The notes under the pieces are model-generated. The model did no database searches and was not told where the DNA came from. It saw only the letters and a list, made by a program, of their open reading frames with translations. Positions 17,350-34,821 of a stretch of DNA of 35,370 bases are shown in pieces. How positions within the stretch are numbered: position 1 is the first letter of the stretch; each line of letters starts with the position of its first letter. The DNA is from a virus (Duplodnaviria > Heunggongvirae > Uroviricota > Caudoviricetes). The stretch covers positions 1 through 35,370 of IMG/VR virus record IMGVR_UViG_2778261448_000004. One strand, 5' to 3'. Both the position numbers and the translations under genes were made by a program.

Positions 17350-17556
17350 ATGCTGAACCTCGATTGCGTTCCTATCTCAACTTATTGCAAAGAAACTGGC
17401 GAAACTCCTGAAGCAATAAACAAACGTGTACAGCGCGGTGTTTGGCGTGAAGGTGTTCAGGTTTTAAAGGTTGAAGGCGTTAAGGAGAGGTGGATTGATC
17501 TTAGTGAGGTTGCAAAATGGGCCAGACAAAACTGCTCAAACTACCGCGCGGCGTAA
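17350..17556 (+). CDS. excisionase-like protein (Xis)
   Basis: Small basic protein directly upstream of and overlapping the integrase gene; ATG 17350 preceded by GGAG; track ORF starts at an upstream GTG (17338). Confidence 0.6.
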   Translation: MLNLDCVPISTYCKETGETPEAINKRVQRGVWREGVQVLKVEGVKERWIDLSEVAKWARQNCSNYRAA

Positions 17557-18713
17557 CAATCAGAAAACACCGTCAGGGAGAAACGATCAATATAACTTTC
17601 ACCTACAAAGGAGTTAAATGTCGTGAGCCACTTTCCAATCTGGAAGTAACACCAAAGAACATTAAATACGCCGAGCGCACACTCGGCGAAATTCATAATA
17701 AGATCGAAAGGGGAACATTCATTTATGCGGAATATTTTCCCCGTTCTGCTCGTTTGAAAATTTTTGGTAATGCTGCTGCAGGCAAAACGGTAAAAATGTA
17801 CCTGGACGAATACCTTGAAATCTGCGAAACGAGAAAACTTTCACCATCTACGATTGGTGGTTATAAAAAATGCCGTAGTGCGTTAGCCTCACTCCACATT
17901 TGCCCTGCAAGTGAATTAACACCAGCAATCCTGAAAGCGTGGATTCAAAGCCAGAAAACGACCTTAAAAACAATTCGCAACCAGTTATCTTTCCTGCGGT
18001 CAGCACTTGATGAAGCCGTAACCGATGGGGTACTTCAAATTAACCCCGTATCGTTGGTAACTGCTTCGCGCTACCAAAGTGATAAGTCAGAAGTAGAAAG
18101 CAGCTACGTGGTTGATCCGCTATCACCAACAGAAGTTGATGCATTACTAGCAGCAGCCGGAAACAAACAATGGGAGAATCTGTTCCGGTTCGCTATACAT
18201 ACAGGCCTGCGTAGTTCTGAATTATGTGCCCTTCGATGGCGTGATATCGACTTTGTTGGAAAAACTGCCCATGTCCAGAGCGCAAGTGTTGTCGGTGTTA
18301 TCAAAGGGACAAAGACAAAAGCAGGTACTCGTAAAGTTGAACTGACAGAAGAGGCAATGTTGGCGCTGATAAATCAGAAGCCATTTACATTCATGAAGGA
18401 TGCTACTGTCTTTGAAGACCCAAAGACCAATAAGCCTTGGGCAAGTGCTGATGCAATCAGGAAAAAAGCATGGGTGCCAACATTACGGAAAGCAGGTATT
18501 CGATACAGAAATCCATATCAAACTAGGCATACATTCGCCACCAGCCATATCAGCCGAGGAGCAAATCTGTTTTGGCTTGCAGCTCAAATGGGGCATAAAG
18601 GGCCGGAAATGCTTTTCAGGCATTATGGTTCGTATCTCGTAGACTATGATGGCAAGACAGCTTGTAAGGACCAAGTATCAAAAAATCCGGAGAACATGAA
18701 AATTGAGAAGTAA
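17517..18713 (+). CDS. tyrosine integrase of the lambdoid prophage
   Basis: 398 aa; N-terminal arm-binding-type region (LPRGVTIRKHRQGETINITFTYKGVKCRE); C-terminal catalytic region with R...HxxR...Y context (RHTFATSHISRGANLFWLAAQMGHKGPEMLFRHYGSY). Confidence 0.85.
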   Translation: MGQTKLLKLPRGVTIRKHRQGETINITFTYKGVKCREPLSNLEVTPKNIKYAERTLGEIHNKIERGTFIYAEYFPRSARLKIFGNAAAGKTVKMYLDEYLEICETRKLSPSTIGGYKKCRSALASLHICPASELTPAILKAWIQSQKTTLKTIRNQLSFLRSALDEAVTDGVLQINPVSLVTASRYQSDKSEVESSYVVDPLSPTEVDALLAAAGNKQWENLFRFAIHTGLRSSELCALRWRDIDFVGKTAHVQSASVVGVIKGTKTKAGTRKVELTEEAMLALINQKPFTFMKDATVFEDPKTNKPWASADAIRKKAWVPTLRKAGIRYRNPYQTRHTFATSHISRGANLFWLAAQMGHKGPEMLFRHYGSYLVDYDGKTACKDQVSKNPENMKIEK

Positions 18714-18903
18714 AACGCCCGATAGCACTAGCCCCCCTTCGCAAAACAGTAAAGCTTACAAGAATGTTAGCAGGATGATGAGGATAGTGTACAATGGTTT
18801 TAGTGTGCATTAAATGCAAAGATTTGACGTTTTTTGTCAAATTTGTGCTATAAAATCACTTTTAGTGGTTTTTAAGCTATGGGAAGTTAAAAGGGTATAA
18901 ATT

Positions 18904-20169
18904 ATGTTGATTGAGTTTACAGTACAAAACTATAAATCTATTTCAGAGAAACAAACACTGAGTTTAGTTGCATCAAAACTTAACGATTTGCCTAATAATC
19001 TGTTCAGTATTGATGAACCTAAATCTCTTGAATTGCTTAAAAGTGCTGTGATTTATGGCCCTAATGCTGCCGGAAAATCAAACATTATTAACGCTATTAC
19101 AACTATGGCTGAACTTATTGTCCGGTCTGCTACAGGTTATAAAAGTGGTGATAAACTTGATATCACGCCTTTTAGACTAGACTCAAAGAAGATTAATCAA
19201 CCATCTGAATTTGAAATTAACTTTATTTCCGAAGGCATCAGATACCAGTATGGTTTTTCTGCAACAGAAGATTTTATTCACGACGAATGGTTATTTGCAT
19301 TCCCCAAAGGCAGACCACAAAAATGGTTTTTACGTCTATGGGATGAAGAAAAACAAACCCATGAATGGGAGTTGGGGCCATCGTTGACAGGAGAAAAACA
19401 AACATGGTTGAAATCAACTAGGCCTAATGCGCTCTTTCTTTCTACAGCGGTACAATTAAACAGTGTACAACTAAAACCTGTATACGATTGGTTTTATTAC
19501 AAAGTTAAATTTACTGAATTAACAGGTTGGGATAGTGATTACAGTGCAAAGCAATGCTTAAATGATAAGAAAGATGAGATTCTCAATTTTTTAAAAGCTG
19601 CCGATGTAGGTATTGATGACATTCATGTAACAAAAGAAAAATTCAATCCCAATGCTCTTCCTGATGATATGCCTGCAGCCATCAAGGAACTAGTGATTAA
19701 GAATATGCAAGGCAAGGAAGAATATGTCATTAAAACACTTCATAATAATGAGGATGGAGAGCCAATTCCATTCGATTTAAAAGATGAATCGCATGGAACT
19801 AGAAAAATCTTTAGTTTCGCGGGTCCCTTATCACATTCACTCGAGACAGGAAACATCCTGTTTATTGATGAATTAAATGATAACTTACACCCCAAATTAG
19901 TTGAGTTTATTGTAGGTTTATTTCACGATAAAAATATCAATAAGAATGGTGCCCAGTTAATCTTTACAACTCATGAGACGTCTATTTTAAATCAAGATGT
20001 TTTCAGACGAGATCAGATTTGGTTTGTAGAAAAAGACAATTCAAAGCAAACAAATCTTTTCCCACTTACGGATTTTAGTCCAAGAAAAGGAAGGGAGAAT
20101 TTAGAAGCTTCTTATCTTGACGGTAGATATGGGGCTTTACCACTCATTGGGAAATGGGAGAGATATTAA
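18904..20169 (+). CDS. ABC-type AAA ATPase (AbiLi/AriA-like)
   Basis: 421 aa; Walker A GPNAAGKSN; Walker B ILFIDELNDNLHP; D-loop/H-loop region IFTTHE; low-GC; start close to an AT-rich upstream region. Confidence 0.8.
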   Translation: MLIEFTVQNYKSISEKQTLSLVASKLNDLPNNLFSIDEPKSLELLKSAVIYGPNAAGKSNIINAITTMAELIVRSATGYKSGDKLDITPFRLDSKKINQPSEFEINFISEGIRYQYGFSATEDFIHDEWLFAFPKGRPQKWFLRLWDEEKQTHEWELGPSLTGEKQTWLKSTRPNALFLSTAVQLNSVQLKPVYDWFYYKVKFTELTGWDSDYSAKQCLNDKKDEILNFLKAADVGIDDIHVTKEKFNPNALPDDMPAAIKELVIKNMQGKEEYVIKTLHNNEDGEPIPFDLKDESHGTRKIFSFAGPLSHSLETGNILFIDELNDNLHPKLVEFIVGLFHDKNINKNGAQLIFTTHETSILNQDVFRRDQIWFVEKDNSKQTNLFPLTDFSPRKGRENLEASYLDGRYGALPLIGKWERY

Positions 20170-20855
20170 TGGGAAGCGAAGATCTGTTCAAAAAAAGAAA
20201 GGCTCGGCGTAATAATGAATTCAAACGAGTTAGTAAAGCACGAGCTCAAATGAAGAAAATTCTTATCGTCTGTGAGGGAGAGAAGACTGAGCCCGCATAT
20301 TTTACAGATTTTATAAAACATTGCCGTATAAGCACGGCAAGCATAGTTGAGATTTCTGGAGAGTGCGGCTCAAGCCCTATGAATGTGGTATCTTGGGCAA
20401 AAGAAAAATATAATACGGAAAAAAAAAGGAGCGACCCTTATGATAAGGTTTATTGTGTCTTTGATAGAGACGCTCACCCTAACTATGATGAAGCTCTTAG
20501 CAGGATTAATTCCTTAAATCCAAAAGGGATTTTTGTTGCTATAACTTCCATACCATGTTTCGAGTACTGGCTGATACTACATTTTGGATACACCCGAAAA
20601 TCATTTTCACCTCAGAAAGGCAAAAGTGAAGGCGCACAAATGCTAGCTGAGTTAAAAAAATACATGCCAGATTATGAGAAAAAGGCATCAGGTGTATTTA
20701 ATAAATTGCAAGATCGGCTCGATACGGCATTAATCAATGCTAAAAGAGTCGAAGATGCCGCCAAAAAAGACGGTTCGATAAATCCTTCAACTAAAGTTGG
20801 CGCTTTGATTACAGATCTAATTAACATTCGTGATGACTTTGAAAATGAGAAGTAA
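20169..20855 (+). CDS. RloB-like / TOPRIM (OLD-family) protein, partner of the ATPase
   Basis: N-terminal motif ILIVCEGEKTEPAYF and downstream VFDRD acidic motif typical of RloB/TOPRIM proteins; ATG 20169 overlaps the ATPase stop (TAATG) with GGGAGAG RBS; alternative in-frame ATG at 20154. Confidence 0.75.
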   Translation: MGSEDLFKKRKARRNNEFKRVSKARAQMKKILIVCEGEKTEPAYFTDFIKHCRISTASIVEISGECGSSPMNVVSWAKEKYNTEKKRSDPYDKVYCVFDRDAHPNYDEALSRINSLNPKGIFVAITSIPCFEYWLILHFGYTRKSFSPQKGKSEGAQMLAELKKYMPDYEKKASGVFNKLQDRLDTALINAKRVEDAAKKDGSINPSTKVGALITDLINIRDDFENEK

Positions 20856-20980: not shown

Positions 20981-21011
20981 GACGCGGGTTCAACTCCCGC
21001 CAGCTCCACCA
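20981..21011 (+). other. ssrA: att core: 31-nt duplicate of the ssrA (tmRNA) 3' end
   Basis: GACGCGGGTTCAACTCCCGCCAGCTCCACCA equals the 3' terminus of E. coli tmRNA including CCA; the sequence upstream is not tmRNA, so this is an integration-site repeat rather than an intact gene. Confidence 0.8.
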
Positions 21012-21057
21012 AAATTCTCCATCGGTGATTACCAGAGTCATCCGATGAAGTCCTAAG

Positions 21058-21091
21058 AGCCCGCACGGCGCAAGCCCTGCGGGCTTTTTTG
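21058..21091 (+). terminator. intrinsic terminator (native ssrA terminator)
   Basis: AGCCCGCA ... TGCGGGCT stem followed by TTTTTT. Confidence 0.6.
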
Positions 21092-21144
21092 TGCCCTCAA
21101 TTTGTCCCGCGAAGTCCGAAGAAAACTAATTAAATCCGATCCTT

Positions 21145-21198
21145 TTAGGCACCTTGTTAGGCACCTCATAAAGCTTTATTGTTTTTTGAGGTGCCTAA
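21145..21198. promoter_or_regulatory. three copies of a 9-bp motif upstream of the P4-type integrase gene
   Basis: TTAGGCACC at 21145-21153 and 21157-21165 (direct), GGTGCCTAA at 21190-21198 (inverted), 19 bp before the int start. Confidence 0.45.
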
Positions 21199-21216
21199 AA
21201 CTATGGAAACCCGGCA

Positions 21217-22458
21217 ATGGCAAGACAAACCAAACCTCTATCCGTTAAAGAAATAGAATCAGCCAAACCCAAGGAGGCGGACTACGTTCTCTATGATGGC
21301 GATGGCCTTGAGCTACTCATTAAATCCAGCGGGAGTAAAATCTGGCAGTTTCGCTACATTCGCCCTGTCACCAAGAAACGAGCAAAGAAGAGCATAGGCT
21401 CCTACCCGTCAGTTACCCTTGCCGATGCCAGAAACTACCGTGCAGAGTCCCGCTCACTACTGGCTAAACAGATCGATCCGCAGGAACATCAGCAAGAACA
21501 ATTGCGCAGTTCGCTGGAAGCCAAAACCAACACTTTCCAACTCGTAGCTGAACGTTGGTGGAATGTGAAGAAAGCCAGTGTGACAGAGGACTATGCGGAA
21601 GATATCTGGCGCTCTCTTGAAAGAGACGTCTTTCCTGCGATTGGCGACGTTAGCGTTACAGATATTAAAGCTCATACACTGGTTCAGGCCGTACAACCGG
21701 TTCAGGCCAGAGGAGCACTGGAAACTGTTCGTCGCCTGTGCCAACGTATTAATGAGGTCATGATCTATGCCCAGAACACAGGGCTGATTGATGCTGTTCC
21801 CAGCGTTAATATCGGTAAAGCCTTCGAGAAGCCTCAGAAAAAGAACATGCCCAGCATTCGACCGGATCAGCTACCTCAGTTAATGCAGACGATGCGAACA
21901 GCCAGCATTAGCCTTTCCACACGCTGCCTGTTCATGTGGCAACTTCTTACTATTACCCGCCCTGCCGAAGCGGCTGAAGCTCTCTGGGAAGAGGTAGACA
22001 TAGAAGCGCGAGAGTGGAAGATTCCTGCAGCACGCATGAAAATGAACCGCGACCATACTGTTCCATTGTCAGATGAAGCAATTGCGATACTAGAGATGAT
22101 GAAGCCGTTAAGTGGAAATCGAGAATTTATCTTTCCCAGCCGCATCAAGCCAAACCAGCCGATGAACAGTCAGACCGTAAACGCATCGCTAAAACGCGCA
22201 GGTTTTGGTGGGGTGCTCGTTTCACACGGCCTGCGATCTATCGCCAGTACAGCCCTTAATGAGCAGGGATTTCCACCTGATGTTATTGAGGCTGCACTTG
22301 CTCATGTGGATAAGAATGAGGTTCGTCGTGCGTATAACCGTAGTGATTATCTTGAGCAGCGACGGCCTATGATGCAGTGGTGGGCTGATTTTGTGATGGC
22401 TGCAGATCACGGTAGTATGATTGAAGGAGGGATAAAGGCAATGCGGTTAGTTGGATGA
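21217..22458 (+). CDS. intA: P4-family tyrosine integrase (CP4-57 IntA-like) adjacent to ssrA
   Basis: 413 aa starting MARQTKPLSVKEIESAKPKEADYVLYDGDGLELLIKSSGSKIWQFRY, the typical P4-type integrase N-terminus; about 205 bp downstream of the tmRNA 3' end, as for ssrA-intA in E. coli K-12 (recollection). Confidence 0.8.
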   Translation: MARQTKPLSVKEIESAKPKEADYVLYDGDGLELLIKSSGSKIWQFRYIRPVTKKRAKKSIGSYPSVTLADARNYRAESRSLLAKQIDPQEHQQEQLRSSLEAKTNTFQLVAERWWNVKKASVTEDYAEDIWRSLERDVFPAIGDVSVTDIKAHTLVQAVQPVQARGALETVRRLCQRINEVMIYAQNTGLIDAVPSVNIGKAFEKPQKKNMPSIRPDQLPQLMQTMRTASISLSTRCLFMWQLLTITRPAEAAEALWEEVDIEAREWKIPAARMKMNRDHTVPLSDEAIAILEMMKPLSGNREFIFPSRIKPNQPMNSQTVNASLKRAGFGGVLVSHGLRSIASTALNEQGFPPDVIEAALAHVDKNEVRRAYNRSDYLEQRRPMMQWWADFVMAADHGSMIEGGIKAMRLVG

Positions 22459-22538
22459 CATGTCGTAGCTAAAACCCGTTCTGTTTTTGGGTAGATTAAC
22501 CTGAAGGTCTGCAATTTTAAATGACGCTGAAAGAAGTT

Positions 22539-22565
22539 AAACCCTGCTCTTAAGCAGGGTTTTTA
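22539..22565. terminator. bidirectional intrinsic terminator between convergent int and giant gene
   Basis: AAACCCTGC-TCTTAA-GCAGGGTTT perfect 9-bp stem flanked by A-run and T-run. Confidence 0.65.
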
Positions 22566-22596
22566 TGATTTATTCTAATTTTGGTTTTGAATCTTT

Positions 22597-25500
22597 CTAT
22601 TTTAAATCAGCCTTTGCGGCTCGAATATCTGCGTTTTTTGCTGAGTATTCCCATTCGTCAGCGATTCTAAATAGCATTGCAGAAGTACGGACGCAGTGGG
22701 GCATTGAATTTGCCCATTCTCGGTACTGCTCAGCTAATATCCTTTCTTGGTTTCCACCTTCGTAACGCATACGAGCAAATACCCCCCTTTTATTGTACCT
22801 ACCAATTTGTATACCTTGCTCTAACTCATCAGAAGATAATATTTCAATGATGTGCCGAATTGCTTCATGTGGCCAGGAATTATCTACTGAGCTATTAGGG
22901 GCATGTGCCAGAATTTTTCCTATTACATGATCAGTGATTTCTTGGCGATGATGCAATTTTGCTAAATGGCGTACATTCTCACACCAATCTTCAAGTTTAT
23001 CTTGATCAATTTCATTGTCTATCTGCCCTGGTAGTATTCGTAATTTTTCAAGTAATCTGTATATAGAAGTAGCTCTTTTAACTTCCAACTCCGATGGTTC
23101 TGTTTGTTCATCTTCGTCACTACGATATACAATACATATTGCTTCTATAAAAACCTCTGGCTTTTTCATCATTAGACGATGCAGGATAAGTGGCTCATCG
23201 CTATCCGGAAAACAAGGCAAGTAGGTCATTTCTTTAAATGCCAAATCTGTTTCAGAAACATCGTTACGTTGTTTGAGTTCATCAAAAACTTTTTTTACAT
23301 AGTACGATAGCATTGTATCAAATTGGATATCCTGGCTATTTATTTCTTTAACGACTATATCTAGAAGATATAAAAGTGTTGTAGATGGAATCTCAGAAAG
23401 GCGTTGATTTGCTGATATAATAGCAGCAAGACCCCGGCCCCTTTCTATATATTTATCCATAAGAACAAATAAATCCGAAGTTTTACCCATCATTGCAATG
23501 GGTTGTTTTTGCAACCAATATTTTTCGTTGATGTTATCTTCAAACCCTTCAATAATGCTCCATATCTCTTGTGAGTCTCTTAACGATGCTAAGATTTTCC
23601 CAGCCCTATCAGGGGTAATTTTAAACTGTTTAAAATACACTTTTATTTTATTAAGCCATTCAGCACCAAAGCATTCAACACCATATTGCATTAACAACCC
23701 ACAAACTTCATCAATATTTTTTTTGTTGTTAATAAGCATTACAAACAAATCATTTAATTTTTCTTCATCCAACGAGAGTGCTGATATATGCCTTGCTGCA
23801 ATAAAAACATTATTAACTTGTTGAAAAAGGTCTTTCACCCCAGACAAACCTAAAGTAAAGTATATTTCCCTAAGTTTTTCACTTCGCATTTCTTCGACAG
23901 AAGAAAAAATTCCGCCAGCATTTTCAATTGACTCTTCAATATCAGAATCCCAATCATTGAAAATCCATAAACTGGCTCTAACCATGTCAATTGGTTTATA
24001 ATTATCAAGTATTTTCGCTATTTTTTCCATAGACTCAAATTTAAATGCCCAGTTCGCATCTGAATATTTTTTATGGCGAGAATACTCATGACGCAAAGCC
24101 TCCCATACGATGAACTGATCCTCTTCAGTTTGTTGAGAAAGGCAAAGTTCAAGATGAGAAAGTGTTTCATCTATTGCATTCTCAGGGAATGAGCTTAAAT
24201 GAGAGATTAGGATTTCCCATCTTGTTGGGAGTATACCTGCAAGTTTAATTGCTTCTTGGATAATAAAGATTTGCCCCTCCCAAACAACGCCCCACGTTAG
24301 TTTTTCTACATCTTTATCCGACTCTCTGAACTTCATTTTTTGGTTTTGATCAGAGGTATCATGGGAGCGAGGAAGGAGATTTTGTAACAAACTCCACCCA
24401 ATACTAGGAACAATAGTGATAATTTTTTTTATAATTGCATTTCTAACTTTTACTGGTGCCCATGTATTAGGAGACCATGCCAGAAAAATGGTTCTTAAAC
24501 TATTAAGAGGGCGATCTGAGTAAGTTCCTCCGGGATCTATTACAGCGAGTTTTGCAAGACAGATTGCAGCGCGTAATAGATATGTTTGTTCCCAAGCCAA
24601 GGCTTCCAATGCCCATTTTAATCCATGATAATGACTTCGAGGAGTTAACAGCCCTTTATCTTCATTGAATATTGGAGCAATCATTTCCCCATTGCCCTTA
24701 AGCAATTGCTCAAGGGCATCAAGGAAAGGGCCAGGGGCAGCTTCTGCCAGCAGCGGAAGTTGATCTCGCAAACTAACAAATAGTCGATGGTCGTTAGCAA
24801 GTCCCGGAATACTCTGAACTATTTTGTTAACAAAATCTTGGGGTGTCATACCAGTAACCCGGAATTCGGCCTGTTCATGTAATATTGCCATATGTAGCAA
24901 AACTGTTGTCATTCCATTACGTAACCACGAGCTATAAGACGTTTTAATACCATTGTCAGGTACAAACAGATCTTCGGCCTTTGGTGGTTCAGGAATATAG
25001 GAAAAAACCTCTCTTACGGCCTTCTCAAAACGCTCCAGGTGTTCTTCACCCAGCAAATAGCCTAAATGTACAAAAGCATCTACCGACGAACGCAATGACC
25101 AAATATCATCTACTCGGTCAATTGGAGAATCGCGGCGCTTTGTTAATAGCCTTAATGGATTTTCAACTTGAGAATAGTCTGTATAGCCAGCTAGTTGCTT
25201 GAGAATTAACTTATCTTTCTCTGAACATGTACTCCATGCACCAGCTAATAAAGCAGGGAGCAACTCAGGGCTGTCTTTCCATTCAGGTGATTCAGCCGTG
25301 CTACTTGATATCTGGCGAGCCAAAACAGACAAACTTCGGCCACACTGCCGCGCTATTTGATAACTATTATCTGAATCAAACCCCATAGATTCAAGAGCCT
25401 TACCTAAAGATATACTATCTGGGCGGATCAGAAGTTCGTGATCAGTTCGTGTTTCATCGGCTCCGGCACTTACTACTGTGATAGATGCTTGCTGTAATAA

Positions 25501-26343
25501 ACCGGCTAAAGCTCTTGCTCGATCACGTGGTAAGAAGATCATTCCTCTTTTTCCAGAAAGCTGTCTTGCAGCATCATCCGTATCAATAATTAGTGCTCGA
25601 CTTTGAAAGGAATGTCGAAGTTCCGCTTCAGTGGTTCTGATAGCTGCAATCGCAAAAGCAATAACCTCATCCGGAGAATCTGCAGCTAAAGATATTTTTC
25701 GACCATTTTCTCGTAACTCATTCAGAAAACGCTCTTTTTGCTTTTCTCTCCCCGCCAGCAAGACTGCTTCAGTTAAAGGGGGATTAAATTTAGTGGAAAA
25801 TTCATCCCAAAACTCCTTAATGCTTCTAACACCAACCTGTGGCATTAGCTCAAGATGGTAGCGAGCGTAGTAAGCAGCTACAGCAGGGCAAACACCGAGC
25901 CAATCTTCAAGCATAGAACCATCAATTAATTTGATGTCTTTCCACTTACCACTATTGCGTTTCTCTTGTAGCCAGTCTTCAAGCTTTACCTTAGGATTAT
26001 CCCATGTTCTTAATGAAGCGAAAACAAAAGTAGTCTTTAGACGTATCTCTGGAGCAACTTCGCGTGTTCTTTTTTCGTAATCAAAGTTAGCTTTATCAAG
26101 CAATTTTTCATTAACACCAAATTCCCAGAATGAGTCGCCATCAGGAACATAGGGGGCCACCCCCTCGGCTTTAAGTACACCGTCATAACCTCTAACCTGT
26201 CCCTTATCACCATTAGGAAATCTAATTTCAGTAATACTGTTAGCCGTTGCACGTATAAGATCAGCGATTAGTGCTGGAAAAATAACTTTTGCAGGAATAG
26301 AATCTGCCCATTGCTGAAGGTTAAGTGCTTTTATCCATTTCAT
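22597..26343 (-). CDS. giant hypothetical protein (1248 aa), no canonical P-loop; low-GC island cargo
   Basis: Single uninterrupted ORF with ATG and GGAG RBS; N-terminal segment with a PDGD motif (GVAPYVPDGDSFWEFGVNEK); rest predicted helical; R-x5-H (RHLAKLH) near C-terminus. Function not recognisable. Confidence 0.8.
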   Translation of the reverse strand: MKWIKALNLQQWADSIPAKVIFPALIADLIRATANSITEIRFPNGDKGQVRGYDGVLKAEGVAPYVPDGDSFWEFGVNEKLLDKANFDYEKRTREVAPEIRLKTTFVFASLRTWDNPKVKLEDWLQEKRNSGKWKDIKLIDGSMLEDWLGVCPAVAAYYARYHLELMPQVGVRSIKEFWDEFSTKFNPPLTEAVLLAGREKQKERFLNELRENGRKISLAADSPDEVIAFAIAAIRTTEAELRHSFQSRALIIDTDDAARQLSGKRGMIFLPRDRARALAGLLQQASITVVSAGADETRTDHELLIRPDSISLGKALESMGFDSDNSYQIARQCGRSLSVLARQISSSTAESPEWKDSPELLPALLAGAWSTCSEKDKLILKQLAGYTDYSQVENPLRLLTKRRDSPIDRVDDIWSLRSSVDAFVHLGYLLGEEHLERFEKAVREVFSYIPEPPKAEDLFVPDNGIKTSYSSWLRNGMTTVLLHMAILHEQAEFRVTGMTPQDFVNKIVQSIPGLANDHRLFVSLRDQLPLLAEAAPGPFLDALEQLLKGNGEMIAPIFNEDKGLLTPRSHYHGLKWALEALAWEQTYLLRAAICLAKLAVIDPGGTYSDRPLNSLRTIFLAWSPNTWAPVKVRNAIIKKIITIVPSIGWSLLQNLLPRSHDTSDQNQKMKFRESDKDVEKLTWGVVWEGQIFIIQEAIKLAGILPTRWEILISHLSSFPENAIDETLSHLELCLSQQTEEDQFIVWEALRHEYSRHKKYSDANWAFKFESMEKIAKILDNYKPIDMVRASLWIFNDWDSDIEESIENAGGIFSSVEEMRSEKLREIYFTLGLSGVKDLFQQVNNVFIAARHISALSLDEEKLNDLFVMLINNKKNIDEVCGLLMQYGVECFGAEWLNKIKVYFKQFKITPDRAGKILASLRDSQEIWSIIEGFEDNINEKYWLQKQPIAMMGKTSDLFVLMDKYIERGRGLAAIISANQRLSEIPSTTLLYLLDIVVKEINSQDIQFDTMLSYYVKKVFDELKQRNDVSETDLAFKEMTYLPCFPDSDEPLILHRLMMKKPEVFIEAICIVYRSDEDEQTEPSELEVKRATSIYRLLEKLRILPGQIDNEIDQDKLEDWCENVRHLAKLHHRQEITDHVIGKILAHAPNSSVDNSWPHEAIRHIIEILSSDELEQGIQIGRYNKRGVFARMRYEGGNQERILAEQYREWANSMPHCVRTSAMLFRIADEWEYSAKNADIRAAKADLK

Positions 26344-26810
26344 ATTGGTACTCCACCCAATAAAATTTTAAACAACCAAATCTAAAAAAAACTAATATTA
26401 AAAATTCATTTTTAATGTACACAAAATGCTAACAAAATTGCTAAAGAGTAAAAAATCAGGACTTATTTATTGATCTTAAACATTAGCCAAATTTTTAAAC
26501 TCGCACTAAACCACCTCAAGAATAAAAAATCATCAAGTTAGTGGAACTTTTTGCACCTAGAATGCTCGTTAACCTCACAGTCATATAAAGCATGAGCCTG
26601 TCCTTTGTTCATACTAGACCTTAGTTTCATACATACTGATAGCTCTACGTAAAAGTAGGTATGATCGACATCACAGTTCTGAGTCAGAACATCTTAACCA
26701 ATTGAAGTGGATGGTTTTAATTGTAAATGTTCAGCGGACATCTCTTCCCTCATTGGTTAGACTAAGAGCAACTTTTTCTATGGTCGCAATATCTTTTATA
26801 GGGTTTAAAA

Positions 26811-29800
26811 GTGGCAATCTTTGACATTGAAAAGGACGAATTACTTCGGCTCTCCGATATCCAGCTGGAAGAGCTGATCGCTCGGCTAGCAGAAGCTGAA
26901 GTGGCAATGCACGGCCATAGCCCAGCATGTGTAAATTGGTCTGGTTCAATTACAGCCCCTGACGGAGGAATTGACATCCATGTTCAGGTTCCAATTGATC
27001 AACTGAAAGCAGGCTTTCTTGTAAGACCTGATACGGTCTTTCAGGCAAAGAAACATAAGATGCCTAAGTCTGCAATTGAGAGGGAAATTGGCACCGGCAA
27101 AGCACTTTCTCCCATCATTTCTGAACAAGCCAGAAAGCAAGGCAGTTACATCATTGTCAGCCTGGGTGATGATTGCTCGCCGTCAGGAAAGAAGGATCGT
27201 CTCAAAGCGATGAGGGATGCAGTAAAAGATGATCCTAACGAAAGTTATCTTCATCTTGATTTCTACGACCGCTCCAAACTCATCCAATGGTTGCGCCAAC
27301 ATCCATCAGTCATGCTGTGGGTAAAAGCAAAGCTTGGGCAAGGGTATTCCGGTTGGCAACCCTACGGAGCCTGGAGCAATCCACCACAAGGTGTTATAGA
27401 CACTTTAATCTCAGCCCCAGGCGTAACCATTACTTTACCATCGGGAAAGGGGCAAAAACTCAAAATTGATGAAGCAATTAACCCAATGCGAGCACTGATC
27501 CGTTCGACAAACAAGGCTGTTCGTATTACAGGATTGTCTGGTGTTGGGAAGACTCGAATCGTTCAGGCGCTCTTTGATGAAACTGTTGGAACAGATGCGC
27601 TTGACCGAACAGTAGCTATTTATGTTGATACTGGCTATGAGCCAGTACCGTCGGCTACAGCAATGCTTGATAACCTGCTCGCTGAAGGCCGGCGAGCAAT
27701 TATGATCCTTGATAATTGCCCATCAGAACTCCATGCTTCGCTTGCCAGCAAAGTATCAGCCGCAGGGAAAGAAGTAAGTCTCATCACGATCGAGTACGAC
27801 ATTAGGGATGACAAACCACAGACAACTGAGGTCATCCACATTGAGACAGATGGTCCAGACGTGGCAGAGCAACTTCTTATCCGTCGCTTCCCTTCTATTG
27901 GTCAGAATAATGCCCGTCGGATTGCAGAGTTCGCAGATGGGAATGCAAGAGTGGCTTTGGCTATAGCGGAAAGAGTGGAAGAAGGTGAGAGTTTAGCCCT
28001 ACTTTCAGATGCGCAGTTGTTTAATCGCTTGTTTGAACAACGTAATCATCCCGACGGCCATTTACGGGAGCAAGCTGAAATATTGTCACTGGTGTATTCG
28101 TTCTCGATATCTAGTCCAGATGCAGCTACCGATGAACTGGAAATATTGGGTGTGCTCTCTGGGTATCCCAAAATCCAGTTATTCAAAGCTGTTACGAAGT
28201 TGATGGAACGTCACATTGTTCAGAAAAGATCCCACTGGAGAGCCATCCTTCCCCATGCCATTGCTAACAAGTTGGCAGCATCTGCACTTAATAGTATTCC
28301 GATTGATCAACTTAGAACGACCTTTGAAGCTCCGGATCGGCAACGATTATTGATGTCGTTCGCGCACAGGTTGGGACTATTGCATAGCCATGCTGTGGCT
28401 AAAGAGATTGTTGAAGCTTGGTTACAGCCCGAAGGGCTGCTTGGAAAAATAATAGACCTAGATGATGTATCGACACGCATTCTAAATTATATCGCTCCAG
28501 TTGCCCCAGGAGCTTTGCTTGAGAGGATTGAAGAAACGCTTGTTACGTCTAATTTTGAGCATTTTAAATCACGCTACAACCCACAACGAACAGCAATTAT
28601 CAAATTGTTGCAGTTACTTGCATATGAATCGAAATACTTTGAACGATGCATTAAGCTCTTAATCCGTATCGCAGACCAGGAAAGCGCGAGCAATAATTAT
28701 GATTCGGCTCGAAATAAGATAAAGAGGTTTTTCCAACCTTATCTATCCGGTACCCATGCCTCTTTAGAACAACGTGTTGCGATCATGAATGAATGCATTG
28801 ATTCAAGTATGGCCGAACGTAGAAGGATGGGGATCGAAATGCTTGAAACTGCTCTCGGCGGACCTCCGTGGACAGGATTCGGAATTAATGAGTTTGGTGC
28901 TAGGCCAAGAGATTATGGATTTCGACCCAGTTACGATGAACTTGTTGCGTGGCTATTCGCCTTCATCGATATTTTGGTGAGATTAGGAACCTCAGGAGTG
29001 CCCGAGCTTGAAGATGATGCCAGGCGGATCTTGGCTGATAAATTTCGCTGGATTTGGCGTCATGGAGGAATAAGGTCAAAATTAATTGATGCGGCTCGTA
29101 AGTTACATGCCCATCGCCCTTGGGGTGAAGGCTGGAAAGCTGTCCGCTCAACAATCTACTTTTTCCATACAAAAAGAAAAGATAACGAAGACGTAGAACC
29201 ATTGCCGGAAATACTTGTGACATTGGAACGAGAATTAGAACCTAAAGACTTGGTTTCGGCAATCATGGTTTATGTACTCAGTAATAGGCGCGATTTTTGG
29301 GCTCTAGATGCTGATTATGAGCACCAAGGAACTAATAAATTCAGTGAAATCAGGAAAATACTTTGTGCCAAAGCTTTCAAGTTGGGGCACGAATTTGCAG
29401 TATCTTCCCATGGACTTGATGAGTTGTGCCCTAATCTTTTTTTGCGGGATGGAATGCCGTATCGCGTCGAATTTGGTAAAGGCTTAGCTAACGGGGCTCC
29501 TGACCTACGAATTTATTGGCAACAACTAGTCATTCAATTGGATCTACAACACAAATCTCAACGTGATGTTTCGGTCATTCGAGGTTTCATTGAAGAGACT
29601 CATTCTATCGATTCAGCATTAGCGCAGGAACTGCTCGATCAGTGTGCACAACATTCCGAACTTCGATTCGAATTAGTCAACCTTCATCCTTGGCAGGAGT
29701 TTACTGAAATCGATCTGGATCGTTGCATGTCGCTTCTGGATGACTCTGACATACAGCCCCATATGTATGGGGCAATTCTGTGGGGTGAGCAATTCTCTAA

Positions 29801-30662
29801 TTTGCCAGAAAGCAGGGTCCTCGAGCTAGCTCAAAGGCTGCTGAGTAAACCGAATGGTGATGAAGTAGTATTGGAAGCACTGAGTATGAAACTAGCTGAT
29901 AAAGGAGATGCTACGGATACACTAGGTCTTGCGCTACGAACAATCGGAATATCCGCTGCAATCCAGAGGTTCCAAAGAGATCACAACGATCTCGGCGGAT
30001 ATCTGGATTATGCAATGGAACGTGTTATCGATGCCACATTGCGCTTCGATGGCAACGAGGCTGAAAAGCTAGAATGGCTGAATACAATCTTCGCTGTTGT
30101 TGATGAGCATTTTGGCTACATTTATTCTTTCGAAGACGCTATCGGTATCACCGCTGCATGGATGCCAAAAGAATTTCTCAGTCGCATTTTTGATGGTACG
30201 GAGGATCAACAACAGAGGCGGCTGCATTTCATCAATCATGATGATTCACATCAGTCTCCTATTGCGAAAATCGATGTAGATATTTTGATTGAATGGTGCA
30301 GGACCACTAAAGACCCTCAGGTTTGGGCTTCAGTCGCTTCAGGTATTAATCTATGGTCAAAAGACGGGGAGCAAAGTCCTATTTGCTTGCAGGATGATGC
30401 TCTGAGATTTCTAGAAGCCTCACCCGAGCCACGAGCCGTCCTTGAGATCTTTGCCGAACACGTAGCACCTTCATCATGGTTCGGTAGTCGTGCGAACGTG
30501 ATGCAACCTAGGGTTGAAGCGATAGGCCAGTTGGTCACCCACGAGCGTGCAGACATTTCTAAGTCGGCTAGAGCTGTTTATGAAAAACTGACTGACTGGG
30601 TTGAAAAGGAAAAAGAACGTGAGCGATTGGAAGATGAGGCATTGGAACAACGGTTTGAATAA
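26811..30662 (+). CDS. giant STAND-like NTPase (1283 aa) with N-terminal Mrr-like nuclease motif (Avs-like candidate)
   Basis: N-terminal APDGGIDIHVQ ... FQAKKH resembles the Mrr-type PD-(D/E)xK catalytic motif; Walker A ITGLSGVGKTRIV; Walker B AIMILDNC; ~900-aa helical C-terminal region. Track start is a GTG, so the true start is uncertain. Confidence 0.8.
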   Translation: MAIFDIEKDELLRLSDIQLEELIARLAEAEVAMHGHSPACVNWSGSITAPDGGIDIHVQVPIDQLKAGFLVRPDTVFQAKKHKMPKSAIEREIGTGKALSPIISEQARKQGSYIIVSLGDDCSPSGKKDRLKAMRDAVKDDPNESYLHLDFYDRSKLIQWLRQHPSVMLWVKAKLGQGYSGWQPYGAWSNPPQGVIDTLISAPGVTITLPSGKGQKLKIDEAINPMRALIRSTNKAVRITGLSGVGKTRIVQALFDETVGTDALDRTVAIYVDTGYEPVPSATAMLDNLLAEGRRAIMILDNCPSELHASLASKVSAAGKEVSLITIEYDIRDDKPQTTEVIHIETDGPDVAEQLLIRRFPSIGQNNARRIAEFADGNARVALAIAERVEEGESLALLSDAQLFNRLFEQRNHPDGHLREQAEILSLVYSFSISSPDAATDELEILGVLSGYPKIQLFKAVTKLMERHIVQKRSHWRAILPHAIANKLAASALNSIPIDQLRTTFEAPDRQRLLMSFAHRLGLLHSHAVAKEIVEAWLQPEGLLGKIIDLDDVSTRILNYIAPVAPGALLERIEETLVTSNFEHFKSRYNPQRTAIIKLLQLLAYESKYFERCIKLLIRIADQESASNNYDSARNKIKRFFQPYLSGTHASLEQRVAIMNECIDSSMAERRRMGIEMLETALGGPPWTGFGINEFGARPRDYGFRPSYDELVAWLFAFIDILVRLGTSGVPELEDDARRILADKFRWIWRHGGIRSKLIDAARKLHAHRPWGEGWKAVRSTIYFFHTKRKDNEDVEPLPEILVTLERELEPKDLVSAIMVYVLSNRRDFWALDADYEHQGTNKFSEIRKILCAKAFKLGHEFAVSSHGLDELCPNLFLRDGMPYRVEFGKGLANGAPDLRIYWQQLVIQLDLQHKSQRDVSVIRGFIEETHSIDSALAQELLDQCAQHSELRFELVNLHPWQEFTEIDLDRCMSLLDDSDIQPHMYGAILWGEQFSNLPESRVLELAQRLLSKPNGDEVVLEALSMKLADKGDATDTLGLALRTIGISAAIQRFQRDHNDLGGYLDYAMERVIDATLRFDGNEAEKLEWLNTIFAVVDEHFGYIYSFEDAIGITAAWMPKEFLSRIFDGTEDQQQRRLHFINHDDSHQSPIAKIDVDILIEWCRTTKDPQVWASVASGINLWSKDGEQSPICLQDDALRFLEASPEPRAVLEIFAEHVAPSSWFGSRANVMQPRVEAIGQLVTHERADISKSARAVYEKLTDWVEKEKERERLEDEALEQRFE

Positions 30663-30707
30663 AGGCTAGTTGCCGTCTTCACAGGAATTCTGTTTAAAGG
30701 AGAAATC

Positions 30708-31454
30708 ATGGAATCTGCACGTAATAAATATACCAGTGAGATTATTGAGGCAGAAGATCTTTGGTTACTTGATGTTGTAGATACGAACGGTTACGTATGC
30801 TGGGGATGTGGGATTGAGATGTATCCTTCCGCTTGGCAAAAAGGAAGTAAGAAAAGACCGTCGTTTAATAAAATGCCTGGAAAAGAGCATATTAACTGTG
30901 ATGCAGATGCTGAAAGCACAGTGGTTAAGCAGGGACAGAAAAAAAGCGTCCGCAACATGCTAGACAGCGCACCGGGTTTGATGCCCGCAGGGTTAAAATT
31001 GATTGAACAACGACCCGTTGTTGATCCTGGCACTACTGGTAGCGACAACAACACCAATCCAATACGTTCTACATCGTCAGCATCCAGCGGGGGAAATGCT
31101 CCAGCGCGGCAATCCCGCCGCCCGGTTAATGCTATTCGCCAGATTTGTAGGGCATTTATTCGCTTCCCGTATGACCGTGGTATGTCATTAAATATCCCAG
31201 GTATTGATGCCGATACTTACATGACCGTGTTTAAAAAACTAAAAGACCCGGTTCAACCCTACCCTGAGCGCCGAGTTTTTTATTCGCAGTTGTTATGGCA
31301 GAAATTTGAGCAAGACGAAAACCGAATTGTCATTCCGCTCTCGGGAGAATGGGCAAAAGACGAATCTGGTAAGTTTAAGCCCTCGCGTAGCTATAAACTA
31401 CACATTGAGTGGGGAGACTGGTCAAAAGCCAAAAAAGACTATGCTTTTGAATGA
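30708..31454 (+). CDS. hypothetical protein (248 aa) co-transcribed downstream of the STAND gene
   Basis: ATG 30708 with AGGAG RBS 46 bp after the STAND stop; Cys cluster YVCWGCG ... HINCD (possible zinc ribbon); Ser/Gly/Thr-rich linker. Confidence 0.7.
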   Translation: MESARNKYTSEIIEAEDLWLLDVVDTNGYVCWGCGIEMYPSAWQKGSKKRPSFNKMPGKEHINCDADAESTVVKQGQKKSVRNMLDSAPGLMPAGLKLIEQRPVVDPGTTGSDNNTNPIRSTSSASSGGNAPARQSRRPVNAIRQICRAFIRFPYDRGMSLNIPGIDADTYMTVFKKLKDPVQPYPERRVFYSQLLWQKFEQDENRIVIPLSGEWAKDESGKFKPSRSYKLHIEWGDWSKAKKDYAFE

Positions 31455-31621
31455 GCTTGAAACTGTGCAGGAAGAAGCAAAAGAAGCAGTAAATAAAAAA
31501 GCTAAAGAGAGAGCTCAAGTCTTCTTTATCGGTGAACAAAGCACTGAGAATCCGGAAATCTTCTACGTGAGTGATTACCGGTTAATCTGTGCGATTATGG
31601 GATATATAATTTACCCCTGAC

Positions 31622-31658
31622 GTAAATGGGCCTTCTTGCAAAATGCAGGCCCATTTAC
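31622..31658. terminator. 11-bp perfect inverted repeat (candidate bidirectional terminator or binding site)
   Basis: GTAAATGGGCC - 15-nt loop - GGCCCATTTAC between the convergent 248-aa and 293-aa genes; flanking sequence AT-rich but without a clean T-run. Confidence 0.4.
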
Positions 31659-31887
31659 ATAATTATTTTCGACTACCACTAAGGCTACTTCAAACCTATA
31701 AATTTCATTCAATTTCTCGTGTAGACACAATTACAACAGTCATCATAACAATAGTCATATTAACAATGATTGGTTTTCCAATAGATTTATGTGGGGTATT
31801 TTCATAGCGATGTAATTTCAAACCCATCAAGACTGATCGTATAGTAGCCCTCCTGATAGACATAAAAATATCAAAACCATAATAATA

Positions 31888-32769: not shown

Positions 32770-32882
32770 GAAAAGTAAATCCCTAAAGTGATTTTATTTT
32801 AATGTTACTTCCAGTGTATGACAGCCCCAGCGTGGTTGGCAATATGGACCCACCTGAACAAACTCATACTAAGGAAGCCTAG

Positions 32883-33122
32883 ATGTTACAGAACCCTCCC
32901 TCCTTACATACATCCAGTTACGCAAATATTCCTGATTCACCGAGGATCTTGAGGCTAAAAGATGTCATGAAAAAAATGGGAATTTCACGCTCAACCATAT
33001 ACGACTGGCTTAATCCAAAATCGCCACGCTACGATGGAACATTTCCAAAACAAAAACGCTTGGGAAGGCAATCCGTTGGCTGGCTGGAGTCAGAACTGAA
33101 TGAATGGGTAATGCGACGTTAG
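32883..33122 (+). CDS. alpA: AlpA-family phage transcriptional regulator
   Basis: 79 aa; RILRLKDVMKKMGISRSTIYDWLNPKSPRYDGTFPKQKRLGRQSVGWLESELNEWV matches the AlpA HTH signature (TIYDWLNPKSPRYD). Confidence 0.8.
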   Translation: MLQNPPSLHTSSYANIPDSPRILRLKDVMKKMGISRSTIYDWLNPKSPRYDGTFPKQKRLGRQSVGWLESELNEWVMRR

Positions 33123-33287
33123 ATATCATTTCACCGTATCAGTGAACCGGGGCAATGCCCCCGGTTTGCTCCACAAAATCACATTCCTCCCCGGAATTCG
33201 AATGCAAAAAAAAACAGACCTGTATTACCGCAATGAATACATTGCAGCGAAGTTGCTGTATCGAATTTTTTTCATTCCGGAGGCTAC

Positions 33288-34821
<1,534 letters not shown>

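What the first reader, a model, noticed from the sequence alone, without database searches (positions are those of the whole stretch)
22597..26343. 1248-aa orphan giant gene divergently paired with a STAND-like gene in a P4-type island
A single 3.7-kb low-GC ORF sits between the P4-family integrase and the STAND-like gene, oriented divergently from the latter across a 467-bp very AT-rich control region (26344-26810). I cannot assign it to any family from the sequence: it has no canonical Walker A, only a short N-terminal PDGD...EFGVNEK segment faintly reminiscent of PD-(D/E)xK nucleases, a possibly degenerate NTPase-like stretch (VLLAGREKQKERF ... RALIIDTDD), and an R-x5-H motif near the C-terminus. 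Integrase-proximal slots of P4-like islands are established hotspots for antiphage cargo, so size, composition and position make this the strongest candidate for an undescribed defence component in the window.
Basis: partly seen in the sequence, partly recalled or inferred. Interest (0 to 1): 0.85.

Follow-up and report, generated by a model that had tools for sequence, protein, structure and literature searches.

The report
P-loop-less relative of Avs8 immune sensor
The 1248-residue "orphan" gene is a real, intact member of a very large unannotated protein family that is a distant relative of its neighbour, the antiphage sensor Avs8; it keeps the nuclease-plus-sensor layout but has lost the nucleotide-binding loop, so it is probably a stand-alone, nucleotide-independent phage sensor rather than a partner of that neighbour.

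Summary
The ORF (22597-26343, minus strand, 1248 aa, GC 39%) is real, and its layout is as described. It is not an orphan: an N-terminal profile finds 3,508 cluster representatives, nearly all full-length ones ~1250 aa, with dN/dS 0.10-0.18. It matches phrog_18693 (unknown function) but nothing in Pfam, NCBIfam or PADLOC.

- a PD-(D/E)xK nuclease-like domain with invariant D54/E74/K84;
- an AAA+/STAND-like domain with invariant R199 in place of a Walker A;
- a ~900-aa helical solenoid.

Profile-profile comparison shows remote, collinear homology to Avs8A (E 9e-12; controls clean).

The "STAND-like" neighbour is the characterised Avs8A/B (PD-lambda-4), which works alone. The two genes travel together only in one enterobacterial ssrA island. 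In 28 other loci the giant gene is solitary, in variable, defence-rich, integrase-bearing contexts. In E. coli it is often broken by IS3 or deletions while Avs8A stays intact.

Best reading is a stand-alone, Avs-like sensor-nuclease without a P-loop. This is a new variant of a known kind, unless the published P-loop-less "KpAvs8" is the same family, which I could not check. Defence itself is untested.

The parts
22597..26343 (-). Complete 1248-aa ORF (identical to WP_097486991.1; RefSeq 'hypothetical protein'), member of a large unannotated family (phrog_18693)
25894..26343 (-). Residues 1-150: PD-(D/E)xK (Mrr/restriction-endonuclease-like) domain with an alpha-beta-beta-beta-alpha-beta core. 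D54, E74 and K84 are conserved in 215-217 of 217 members.
25309..25821 (-). Residues 175-345: AAA+/STAND-like alpha/beta core plus helical lid, with no P-loop. The Walker A position holds A197-G-R199-E-x-Q202, with R199 in 215 of 217 members. A Walker-B-like D/E254 is kept in 193 of 217. R273, R336 and R343 are conserved.
23968..24828 (-). Residues 506-792: the most conserved part of the helical region, homologous to Avs8A residues 541-819
   Evidence: hhalign probability 97.4%, E 9.1e-12, 264 columns. Earlier run E 3.7e-7. Best score of 11 reversed or shuffled controls 28.8, against 71.6 for that real alignment. Conservation profile.
23194..24246 (-). Residues ~700-1050: the most variable stretch of the alpha-solenoid. 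Putative ligand-recognition surface (inference).
   Evidence: Entropy 2.2-3.0 bits, against 1.55-1.8 in the flanking regions. All-helical in the AF2 model. Only generic HEAT/ARM matches.
22600..22896 (-). Residues 1150-1248: conserved C-terminal tail (P1158, R1186, G1196, G1197, E1200, D1239). Function unknown.
   Evidence: Residues 1187-1200 have low pLDDT, and residues 1201-1248 were not modelled.
26351..26357 (-). Shine-Dalgarno-like GGTGGAG, 7 nt upstream of the ATG
   Evidence: Read directly from the sequence
26344..26810 (.). 467-bp AT-rich (GC 0.319) divergent intergenic region shared with Avs8A. Presumed to hold both promoters. No promoter signal above chance.
   Evidence: Promoter scan found 15 sites against 13.0 expected.
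22539..22562 (.). 10-bp-stem hairpin between the convergent stop codons of the integrase and the giant gene. On the + strand it is followed by a T-rich tail (TTATGATTTA) and probably ends the integrase transcript. On the - strand, downstream of the giant gene, the tail (AACTTCTTTC) is not T-rich.
   Evidence: Overall terminator-like sites were not above chance (4 found, 3.4 expected).
21217..22458 (+). Context: P4/CP4-57-type tyrosine integrase of the island
   Evidence: NF007246, 931 bits over 413 of 413 positions; Pfam
20981..21011 (+). Context: att core, equal to the last 31 nt of ssrA. This is the left boundary of the island shared with E. coli O104:H4.
   Evidence: Window 20981-35293 equals L001 12385-26697 at 99.97%. 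ssrA annotation. Sequence.
26811..31454 (+). Neighbour, not part of the system: Avs8A (26811-30662) and Avs8B (30708-31454), also called PD-lambda-4. A characterised major-capsid-protein sensor.
   Evidence: PADLOC PDLC03991 at 2530 bits and PDLC03992 at 544 bits. Literature.

Best explanation
The gene encodes a stand-alone, single-protein immune receptor of the Avs (antiviral STAND / NLR-like) type. It descends from the same stock as Avs8A but has lost the P-loop.

Shown:
- It has the Avs domain order: an N-terminal Mrr/PD-(D/E)xK nuclease-like domain, an AAA+/STAND-like domain, and a ~900-residue helical-repeat domain.
- It is remotely but significantly homologous to Avs8A.
- Its nuclease-site residues D54, E74 and K84 are invariant across the family.
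- No family member has a Walker A. An invariant arginine (R199) sits at that position.
- It is under purifying selection.
- It moves horizontally as a single gene into variable loci that are rich in integrases and defence genes.

Inferred mechanism:
- The variable part of the solenoid binds a phage protein.
- Binding drives oligomerisation through the pseudo-NTPase domain, without canonical NTP binding.
- Oligomerisation brings the nuclease domains together.
- The nuclease cuts DNA and aborts the infection.

It acts independently of the adjacent Avs8A/B.
For: Architecture:
- The AF2 models have pLDDT 82 (residues 1-1200) and 86 (residues 1-345).
- The C-terminal region matches only generic solenoids.

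Homology to Avs8A:
- hhalign aligns 506-792 with 541-819 at probability 97.4%, E 9.1e-12.
- The nuclease-plus-linker module aligns 20-189 with 17-192 at E 0.0014. All hits are collinear.
- Controls reach at most 28.8, against 71.6 for the real alignment they were run against.

Selection:
- 51 positions are at least 97% conserved in 217 members that go down to 23% identity. They include D54, E74, K84 and R199.
- dN/dS is 0.10-0.18 in 15 pairs.

Autonomy:
- No neighbour family recurs in 28 diverse loci.

Context:
- Among 106 flanking proteins there are 5 integrases and strong PADLOC hits to GajA/B, SngB/C, a CBASS cyclase with a 2TM effector, AbiEii, BrxHI/BrxC, JetD, and PDC-S06/S08/S39.
- Individual loci add AbiEi/Eii, an OLD-like ATPase and GmrSD, and RT-SLATT with a Shedu fragment.
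- 25 plasmid records carry a homologue, 11 of them conjugative.
- On viral contigs the gene lies near the ends of predicted prophage contigs.
- Near-identical copies occur in different genera.

Precedent:
- Avs8A senses the capsid protein directly and works alone.
- An Avs8 homologue that naturally lacks nucleotide-binding residues, KpAvs8, has been cloned and modelled on the major capsid protein.
Against: - There is no experimental phenotype for any family member that I could find.
- The family is absent from PADLOC v2, and the accession is absent from the DefensePredictor supplements that are held.
- The second nuclease motif is E-x-G rather than the Q/E-x-K of Avs8A. Catalysis would depend on the relocated K84 and is unproven.
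- Without a P-loop, the usual STAND activation switch cannot operate as known.
- The NTPase-like region itself does not align with Avs8A by sequence.
- In E. coli only about a quarter of carriers keep an intact gene, and there are at least 8 distinct kinds of disruption. This fits a costly or dispensable gene, but is also compatible with no current function in this host.
- Defence enrichment was estimated from only the 2 nearest genes on each side, with no formal genome-wide background.
- The ECOR07 transposon screen for survival of lambda gpE recovered Avs8A only, so the giant gene is not needed for that response.
Confidence: 0.55

Rival explanations
1. Paired-receptor model. The P-loop-less giant protein and the canonical Avs8A, encoded head to head, work together as sensor and executor NLR pairs do in plants. 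The giant protein would broaden or modulate Avs8 sensing, or guard it.
For: - The two genes are remote paralogues in divergent orientation across a shared AT-rich spacer.
- The block is kept together in E. coli, Shigella and Intestinirhabdus.
- Consecutive locus tags show the same in Klebsiella aerogenes: MEB24_001101/001102 and ACF3JK_001575/001574.
- One member lacks the P-loop, as sensor NLRs of plant pairs often tolerate (general knowledge).
Against: - 28 of 28 loci outside this enterobacterial island lack Avs8A/B.
- 4 of 4 diverse Avs8 loci on plasmids lack a giant-family gene.
- Avs8A alone gives full lambda defence in MG1655, and transposon hits fell only in Avs8A.
- Many E. coli genomes keep an intact Avs8A beside an IS3-split giant gene.
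Confidence: 0.1
2. The family is functional elsewhere, but this E. coli copy is a silent or decaying passenger of the ssrA island with no present role in this host.
For: - In an evenly spaced sample of 60 of the 204 carrier genomes, about 75% have IS3 insertions, frameshifts or deletions of several different kinds.
- The copies in Shigella and Intestinirhabdus are also broken.
- The gene and its promoter region have low GC (0.39 and 0.32), the kind of DNA that H-NS typically silences. A preprint abstract states this for immunity loci in general.
Against: - The window copy is intact, with a good ribosome-binding site.
- Many lineages keep intact copies at 99.9-100% nucleotide identity (H31-H43, H52, H53), including O104:H4.
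- Repeated independent loss is itself typical of costly defence genes.
Confidence: 0.15
3. The family has a non-immune role in mobile-element biology, for example a DNA-binding regulator or 'addiction module' (as some database labels say), or an element-maintenance or exclusion factor.
For: - Some records name fragments or homologues 'XRE family transcriptional regulator', 'HigA family antitoxin' or 'addiction module'.
- A distant branch really does carry an N-terminal HTH_3 domain.
- The family occurs on conjugative plasmids and next to integrases.
Against: - This protein and its whole ~1250-aa clade have no HTH and no Pfam hit at all.
- A 1250-aa nuclease/AAA+-like/solenoid architecture homologous to Avs8A is not that of a regulator or antitoxin.
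- No conserved toxin partner exists.
Confidence: 0.1
4. It is a sensor with a catalytically dead nuclease-like domain. The N-terminal domain only binds DNA or mediates assembly, and the output is something other than DNA cleavage, such as sequestering a phage protein.
For: - The canonical Lys of the (D/E)xK motif is Gly (G76 in 208 of 217 members).
- No P-loop switch exists to license an effector.
Against: D54, E74 and K84 are invariant in 215-217 of 217 members down to 23% identity. K84 aligns with a conserved Lys of Avs8A. Relocated lysines are known in the PD-(D/E)xK superfamily (general knowledge).
Confidence: 0.1

Closest known systems
Avs8A / PD-lambda-4A (EcAvs8, WP_000963924.1), the adjacent gene
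   Same: - Same domain order and almost the same length (1283 against 1248 aa).
- Significant collinear profile homology in the helical region (E 9e-12) and in the nuclease-plus-linker module (E 1.4e-3).
- A single polypeptide that combines effector and sensor.
- Carried on mobile islands.
   Different: - No hit to the PADLOC PD-Lambda-4_A models.
- The Walker A, GLSGVGKT in Avs8A, is replaced by A-G-R-E-x-Q.
- The nuclease motif is E-x-G plus K84 instead of Q-x-K.
- There is no Avs8B-like downstream gene.
- The NTPase regions do not align.
- The trigger is unknown.
KpAvs8 (Lee, Luengo-Woods, Zhang et al., Nature 2026; PMC13581612)
   Same: [quoted passage not shown] That is the feature that sets the giant protein apart. 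Fragments of the giant family occur in K. pneumoniae.
   Different: Its accession and sequence are not in the material held, so I could not test identity with this family. If KpAvs8 belongs to this family, the finding is largely already known.
Avs3/Avs4 (AVAST type; Avs4 structure 8dgf)
   Different: No detectable sequence similarity. Avs3 and Avs4 have functional ATP-binding sites.
DSR2 (defence-associated sirtuin 2)
   Same: It may work in a similar way: a single large protein with an N-terminal enzymatic effector and a HEAT-like repeat sensor, activated by a phage structural protein without a P-loop NTPase switch (my own knowledge; not tested here).
   Different: The effector is a SIR2 NADase rather than a nuclease. 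There were no PADLOC Dsr hits, so it is not a member.
phrog_18693
   Same: Full-length match at 1849 bits, covering 1-1248 of the protein and 1-1255 of 1258 profile positions.
   Different: The PHROG has no assigned function, so it gives a family label only.

Membership tests
Avs8 / PD-lambda-4 | Recognised by the family's own sequence models (PADLOC PD-Lambda-4_A) | tested here: not met
   0 PADLOC families for the giant protein at E<=0.01. The neighbour scores 2530 bits.
Avs8 / PD-lambda-4 | Detectable homology to Avs8A over the sensor or scaffold region | tested here: met
   hhalign probability 97.4%, E 9.1e-12, 264 columns, collinear. Shuffled and reversed controls reach at most 28.8, against 71.6 for the real alignment they were run against.
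Avs8 / PD-lambda-4 | Recognition of HK97-fold major capsid protein, and phage defence | not testable with these tools
   Needs co-expression toxicity or plaque assays, or multimer modelling.
STAND / AAA+ NTPases | ASCE alpha/beta core fold followed by a helical lid | tested here: met
STAND / AAA+ NTPases | Walker A P-loop, GxxxxGK[ST] | tested here: not met
   None of 217 family members has one at the P-loop position. R199 occupies it in 215 of 217.
STAND / AAA+ NTPases | Walker B acidic residue after a hydrophobic strand | tested here: inconclusive
   hhhh[D/E]254 is present in 193 of 217 members and is followed by acidic residues. Its role without a P-loop is unknown.
PD-(D/E)xK nuclease superfamily (Mrr-like) | Restriction-endonuclease-like alpha-beta-beta-beta-alpha-beta fold | tested here: met
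PD-(D/E)xK nuclease superfamily (Mrr-like) | Catalytic D ... (D/E)-x-K triad | tested here: inconclusive
   D54 and E74 are invariant, but the x-K position is G76. The invariant K84 lies ten residues later on the next helix and aligns with conserved K86 of Avs8A. I could not inspect model coordinates.
XRE/HigA-type regulator or antitoxin (label used in some records) | Helix-turn-helix DNA-binding domain (PF01381) | tested here: not met
   No Pfam hit in the window protein. HTH_3 is present only in a distant branch that carries a ~96-aa N-terminal extension.
Cargo of a P4/CP4-57-type integrative island | P4-type integrase next to a tRNA/tmRNA att site, with the cargo gene in the integrase-proximal slot | tested here: met
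   NF007246 integrase. A 31-nt ssrA 3'-end att core lies at 20981-21011. The same island follows ssrA in O104:H4.
DSR2-like effector-plus-HEAT sensors | SIR2 effector, or sequence membership | tested here: not met
   No PADLOC or Pfam hit. The resemblance is functional analogy only.

The most novel reading that the evidence does not exclude
This is a very widespread class of NLR-like immune receptors, with thousands of sequence clusters from Proteobacteria to Actinobacteria, Bacteroidota and Cyanobacteria. In this class the nucleotide switch has been replaced by an invariant arginine. Ligand-driven assembly and nuclease activation would then proceed without NTP. The class would recognise a phage component different from the capsid protein seen by its cousin Avs8. 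A further possibility is cooperation with Avs8 in the enterobacterial island, in the manner of plant paired NLRs.
Probability: 0.25. Interest if true: 0.75.

Novelty: new variant of a known kind. Interest (0 to 1): 0.55.

Why it matters
STAND/NLR receptors are thought to depend on nucleotide binding or exchange for activation. This family would be a natural test of how far that switch is dispensable. It is large, strongly conserved and horizontally mobile. It keeps the nuclease and sensor of an Avs protein but has an arginine in place of the P-loop. It would also add a common single-gene system to defence annotation: it is found in about 4% of complete E. coli genomes and in many other phyla, where current tools call it 'hypothetical' or mislabel it 'XRE regulator'. 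Finally, the finding shows that two adjacent large genes in a well-studied island, the one holding Avs8/PD-lambda-4, are distant paralogues with different fates in E. coli populations.

Tried and rejected
Searches that found nothing for the giant protein:
- Pfam, NCBIfam and PADLOC gave no hit.
- PDB sequence searches, single-sequence and profile, gave nothing meaningful.
- No tRNA or tmRNA gene was found in the window.
- The promoter scan was no better than chance.

Structure searches with limited yield:
- The afdb50 library was unavailable.

Hypotheses tested and rejected:
- Conserved partner gene: ORF clustering across 31 loci found none.
- Obligate pairing with Avs8A/B: rejected.
- Walker A anywhere at the NTPase position in 217 members: none. 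The four regex hits lie at a different, non-homologous spot.
- 'Transcriptional regulator/antitoxin' reading: rejected for this clade, since the HTH occurs only in a distant branch.
- Phage structural or housekeeping protein: no support. The phage collection gave a single weak hit.

Literature checks:
- No paper holds WP_000871158.
- The accession is absent from the DefensePredictor supplements that are held.
- The KpAvs8 accession could not be retrieved.
- Family peptides were not found in the truncated STAND table. This is inconclusive.
- The H-NS preprint could not be opened.

Tool refusals:
The reciprocal context test therefore used plasmid records and locus tags instead.
Full report
**1. 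Observation**

- The window contains one uninterrupted ORF on the minus strand, 22597-26343, from ATG to stop, encoding 1248 aa.
- A GGTGGAG Shine-Dalgarno lies 7 nt upstream of the ATG. The N-terminus MKWI..LNLQQWA is conserved in homologues, so the start is right.
- GC is 0.392, against 0.453 for the whole window.
- On one side the gene converges on a full-length P4/CP4-57-type integrase (21217-22458; NF007246, 931 bits), with a hairpin between the two stop codons (22539-22562).
- On the other side it diverges from a 1283-aa gene across a 467-bp spacer of GC 0.319.

**2. The neighbours are known**

- The 'STAND-like' gene and the 248-aa gene after it match PADLOC PD-Lambda-4_A (2530 bits, 1-1283 of 1283) and PD-Lambda-4_B.
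- In E. coli O104:H4 the same island follows ssrA directly. The two proteins there are WP_000963924.1 and WP_000443183.1, which are the ECOR07 Avs8A and Avs8B accessions used experimentally.
- PD-lambda-4 has been renamed Avs8. Avs8A carries an Mrr nuclease and a P-loop NTPase.
- Avs8A binds lambda gpE with a KD of ~127 nM. It protects MG1655 on its own, and Avs8B is dispensable.
- A transposon selection in ECOR07 hit only Avs8A.
- Window 20981-35293 is 99.97% identical to that island. The match begins with the last 31 nt of ssrA, which is the att core.

**3. Not an orphan**

- The word-indexed search found at least 426 homologues. The best 120 are almost all 1247-1259 aa and 45-60% identical. 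They come from Burkholderia, Cupriavidus, Ralstonia, Polynucleobacter, Stenotrophomonas, Methylococcaceae and others, and none is annotated.
- A profile of residues 1-345 found 3,508 cluster representatives at 50% identity with E <= 1e-3, and 1,780 with E <= 1e-30.
- The protein matches phrog_18693 (unknown function) end to end at 1849 bits.
- Plasmid records add full-length relatives at 24-35% identity in Rhizobium, Shewanella, Adhaeribacter and Arthrobacter.
- In 217 full-length members, down to 23% identity, 51 positions stay at least 97% conserved.
- dN/dS is 0.10-0.18 in 15 pairs. Copies that are 97% identical occur in different genera with dS 0.08, which indicates recent transfer.

**4. 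What the protein is**

*Structure.* AlphaFold2 with family alignments gave confident models: pLDDT 82 for residues 1-1200, and pLDDT 86 with pTM 0.83 for residues 1-345. They show three parts.

- **Residues ~310-1248** are all helical and resemble only generic HEAT/ARM solenoids.

*Motifs.*
- D54 and E74 are invariant in all 217 members, and K84 is present in 215 of 217.
- The residue where a (D/E)xK lysine would sit is Gly (G76).
- The P-loop position reads A197-G-R199-E-x-Q202, with R199 in 215 of 217 members. No member has a Walker A there.
- A Walker-B-like D/E254 is present in 193 of 217 members, and R273, R336 and R343 are retained.

**5. Remote homology to the neighbour**

- A profile of the 217 family members against an Avs8A profile gave a collinear hit, 529-701 against 558-725, at E 3.7e-7 and score 71.6.
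- Eleven reversed or shuffled templates scored at most 28.8.
- I then added four diverse Avs8 relatives from plasmids of Enterobacter, Phaeobacter, Vibrio and Bacillus.
  - The match grew to 506-792 against 541-819, at probability 97.4%, E 9.1e-12, over 264 columns.
  - The entire nuclease-plus-linker module also aligned, 20-189 against 17-192, at E 0.0014.
  - That alignment places D54 on the Avs8A Asp of GGIDI, E74-x-G76 on Q78-x-K80, and K84 on the conserved K86.
- Only the NTPase region fails to align. Avs8A has GLSGVGKT there.
- The giant protein is thus a distant relative of the Avs8 lineage that lacks the P-loop.

**6. Is it coupled to Avs8?**

- Among 31 species-level loci, Avs8A/B lies next to the giant gene only in Shigella and Intestinirhabdus, which carry the same island as E. 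coli (L001).
- Consecutive locus tags show the block in Klebsiella aerogenes too.
- In the other 28 loci no gene family recurs beside the giant gene, apart from integrases.
- Four diverse Avs8 loci have no giant-family neighbour.
- In E. coli, 204 of 5,426 complete genomes carry the gene or remnants of it, all at 99% identity or more.
  - In an evenly spaced sample of 60, only about a quarter have an intact ORF.
  - The others carry one or two IS3 insertions, frameshifts, or deletions with several different end points.
- Avs8A occurs in 152 genomes and is intact in about 31 of 40 sampled rows, including genomes where the giant gene is split.
- Together with the experimental sufficiency of Avs8A, this rejects an obligate pair. 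A facultative interaction in the enterobacterial island is not excluded.

**7. Context**

- I scanned the two nearest genes on each side of the 28 diverse loci, 106 proteins in all.
- They include 5 integrases and strong PADLOC hits to GajA, GajB, SngB, SngC, a CBASS cyclase with a 2TM effector, AbiEii, BrxHI (with BrxC/D by Pfam), JetD, PDC-S06, PDC-S08 and PDC-S39 (two proteins). That is at least 13 proteins.
- Defence genes are roughly 1% of a typical genome (my own knowledge), so this is a clear excess. It is not a formal test.
- Individual loci:
  - A Polynucleobacter locus has AbiEi/Eii, an OLD-like ATPase and GmrSD nearby.
  - A Rhizobium plasmid locus has RT-SLATT and a Shedu fragment.
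  - A Stenotrophomonas locus has orphan immunity genes.
- Of the 25 plasmid records with a homologue, 11 are conjugative.
- On IMG/VR contigs the gene lies within 1-7 kb of a contig end.
- A distant branch has an added N-terminal XRE-type HTH (PF01381). This explains the labels 'XRE regulator', 'HigA antitoxin' and 'addiction module' found on some records, including fragments from this HTH-less clade.

**8. Mechanism**

*Shown:* the architecture, the homology to Avs8A, the conservation of the nuclease-site residues, the absence of a P-loop, the gene's autonomy, its mobility, and its defence-rich surroundings.

*Inferred:*
- The variable part of the solenoid (residues ~700-1050, entropy 2.2-3.0 bits against 1.55-1.8 in the flanking regions) binds a phage protein.
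- Binding causes assembly through the pseudo-NTPase domain.
- The clustered nuclease domains then cut DNA.

*Precedents:*
- Avs3, Avs4 and Avs8 assemble on direct recognition of a phage protein.
- KpAvs8 lacks nucleotide-binding residues.
- DSR2 uses no ATPase (my own knowledge).

*Weak points:* the E-x-G motif, the unknown role of R199, and the lack of any phenotype.

**9. Novelty**

- The family is absent from PADLOC v2, Pfam and NCBIfam, and I found no paper that names it.
- In kind, it is an Avs/STAND-type receptor. What distinguishes it is a family-wide loss of the P-loop, combined with very wide distribution.
- The published KpAvs8 may or may not belong to this family, and I could not obtain its sequence.
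- I therefore rate it a new variant of a known kind, with moderate interest (0.55).
- I put about 0.55 on the stand-alone sensor-nuclease reading. My confidence in the structural and homology assignment alone is higher, about 0.85.

Noticed in passing
window 5463-7074 (+): A low-GC (0.335) two-gene pocket inside the prophage early region matches the PADLOC candidate system PDC-M53 A/B (1e-31 and 2e-54). It has no Pfam hit and is probably a prophage-borne defence moron.
   Followed up: partly
window 17517-20855 and 20981-21011: A second tyrosine integrase (17517-18713) is followed by AbiLi/AbiLii (18904-20855), immediately upstream of the ssrA 3'-end att copy. Two elements therefore occupy the ssrA site in tandem. 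No complete ssrA and no second att copy lie in the window.
   Followed up: partly
window 3796-16062: A prophage early/replication region. It holds a type II-like orphan DNA methyltransferase (3796-4848), DUF968/HNH (7447-8442), KilA-N (8444-9241), a replication protein (10718-11524), Ash (11750-12586), a CII-like protein (12583-13146) and DUF2303 (15238-16062). Four 20-nt iteron-like direct repeats lie at 11155-11264, with two weaker copies at 12004 and 12423.
   Followed up: partly
window 31888-32769 (-): A 293-aa ORF of GC 0.334, downstream of Avs8B. It has no hit in Pfam, PADLOC, NCBIfam or PHROGs. It is conserved in the O104:H4 and Shigella copies of the island, where it is annotated hypothetical.
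   Followed up: partly
window 33288-33587 (+): A 99-aa ORF with a GTPase P-loop domain (MMR_HSR1). It corresponds to the 'GTPase family protein, incomplete' pseudogene next to an IS3 in the O104:H4 annotation, so this end of the island is decayed.
   Followed up: no
L020 (Pokkaliibacter) and L014 (Stutzerimonas), 10001-13765: Giant-family genes 97% identical at the protein level, with dS 0.08, in different genera. This indicates very recent horizontal transfer of the single gene.
   Followed up: partly
public records of the family; L033 5713-9783; L034 152-4264: Fragments of this HTH-less protein are labelled 'XRE family transcriptional regulator' or 'addiction module'. This is probably by transfer from a distant branch that carries a real N-terminal HTH_3 fusion (1356-1370 aa).
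   Followed up: yes
E. coli versus Klebsiella aerogenes copies of the island: Between these hosts the giant protein is only 83% identical, while the adjacent Avs8A is 94% identical. The giant gene either evolves faster or has been exchanged by recombination within the block.
   Followed up: no
E. coli genome hits H112, H138, H147: Avs8A itself is occasionally interrupted by IS100/IS21 or IS3-family elements, but far less often than the giant gene.
   Followed up: no
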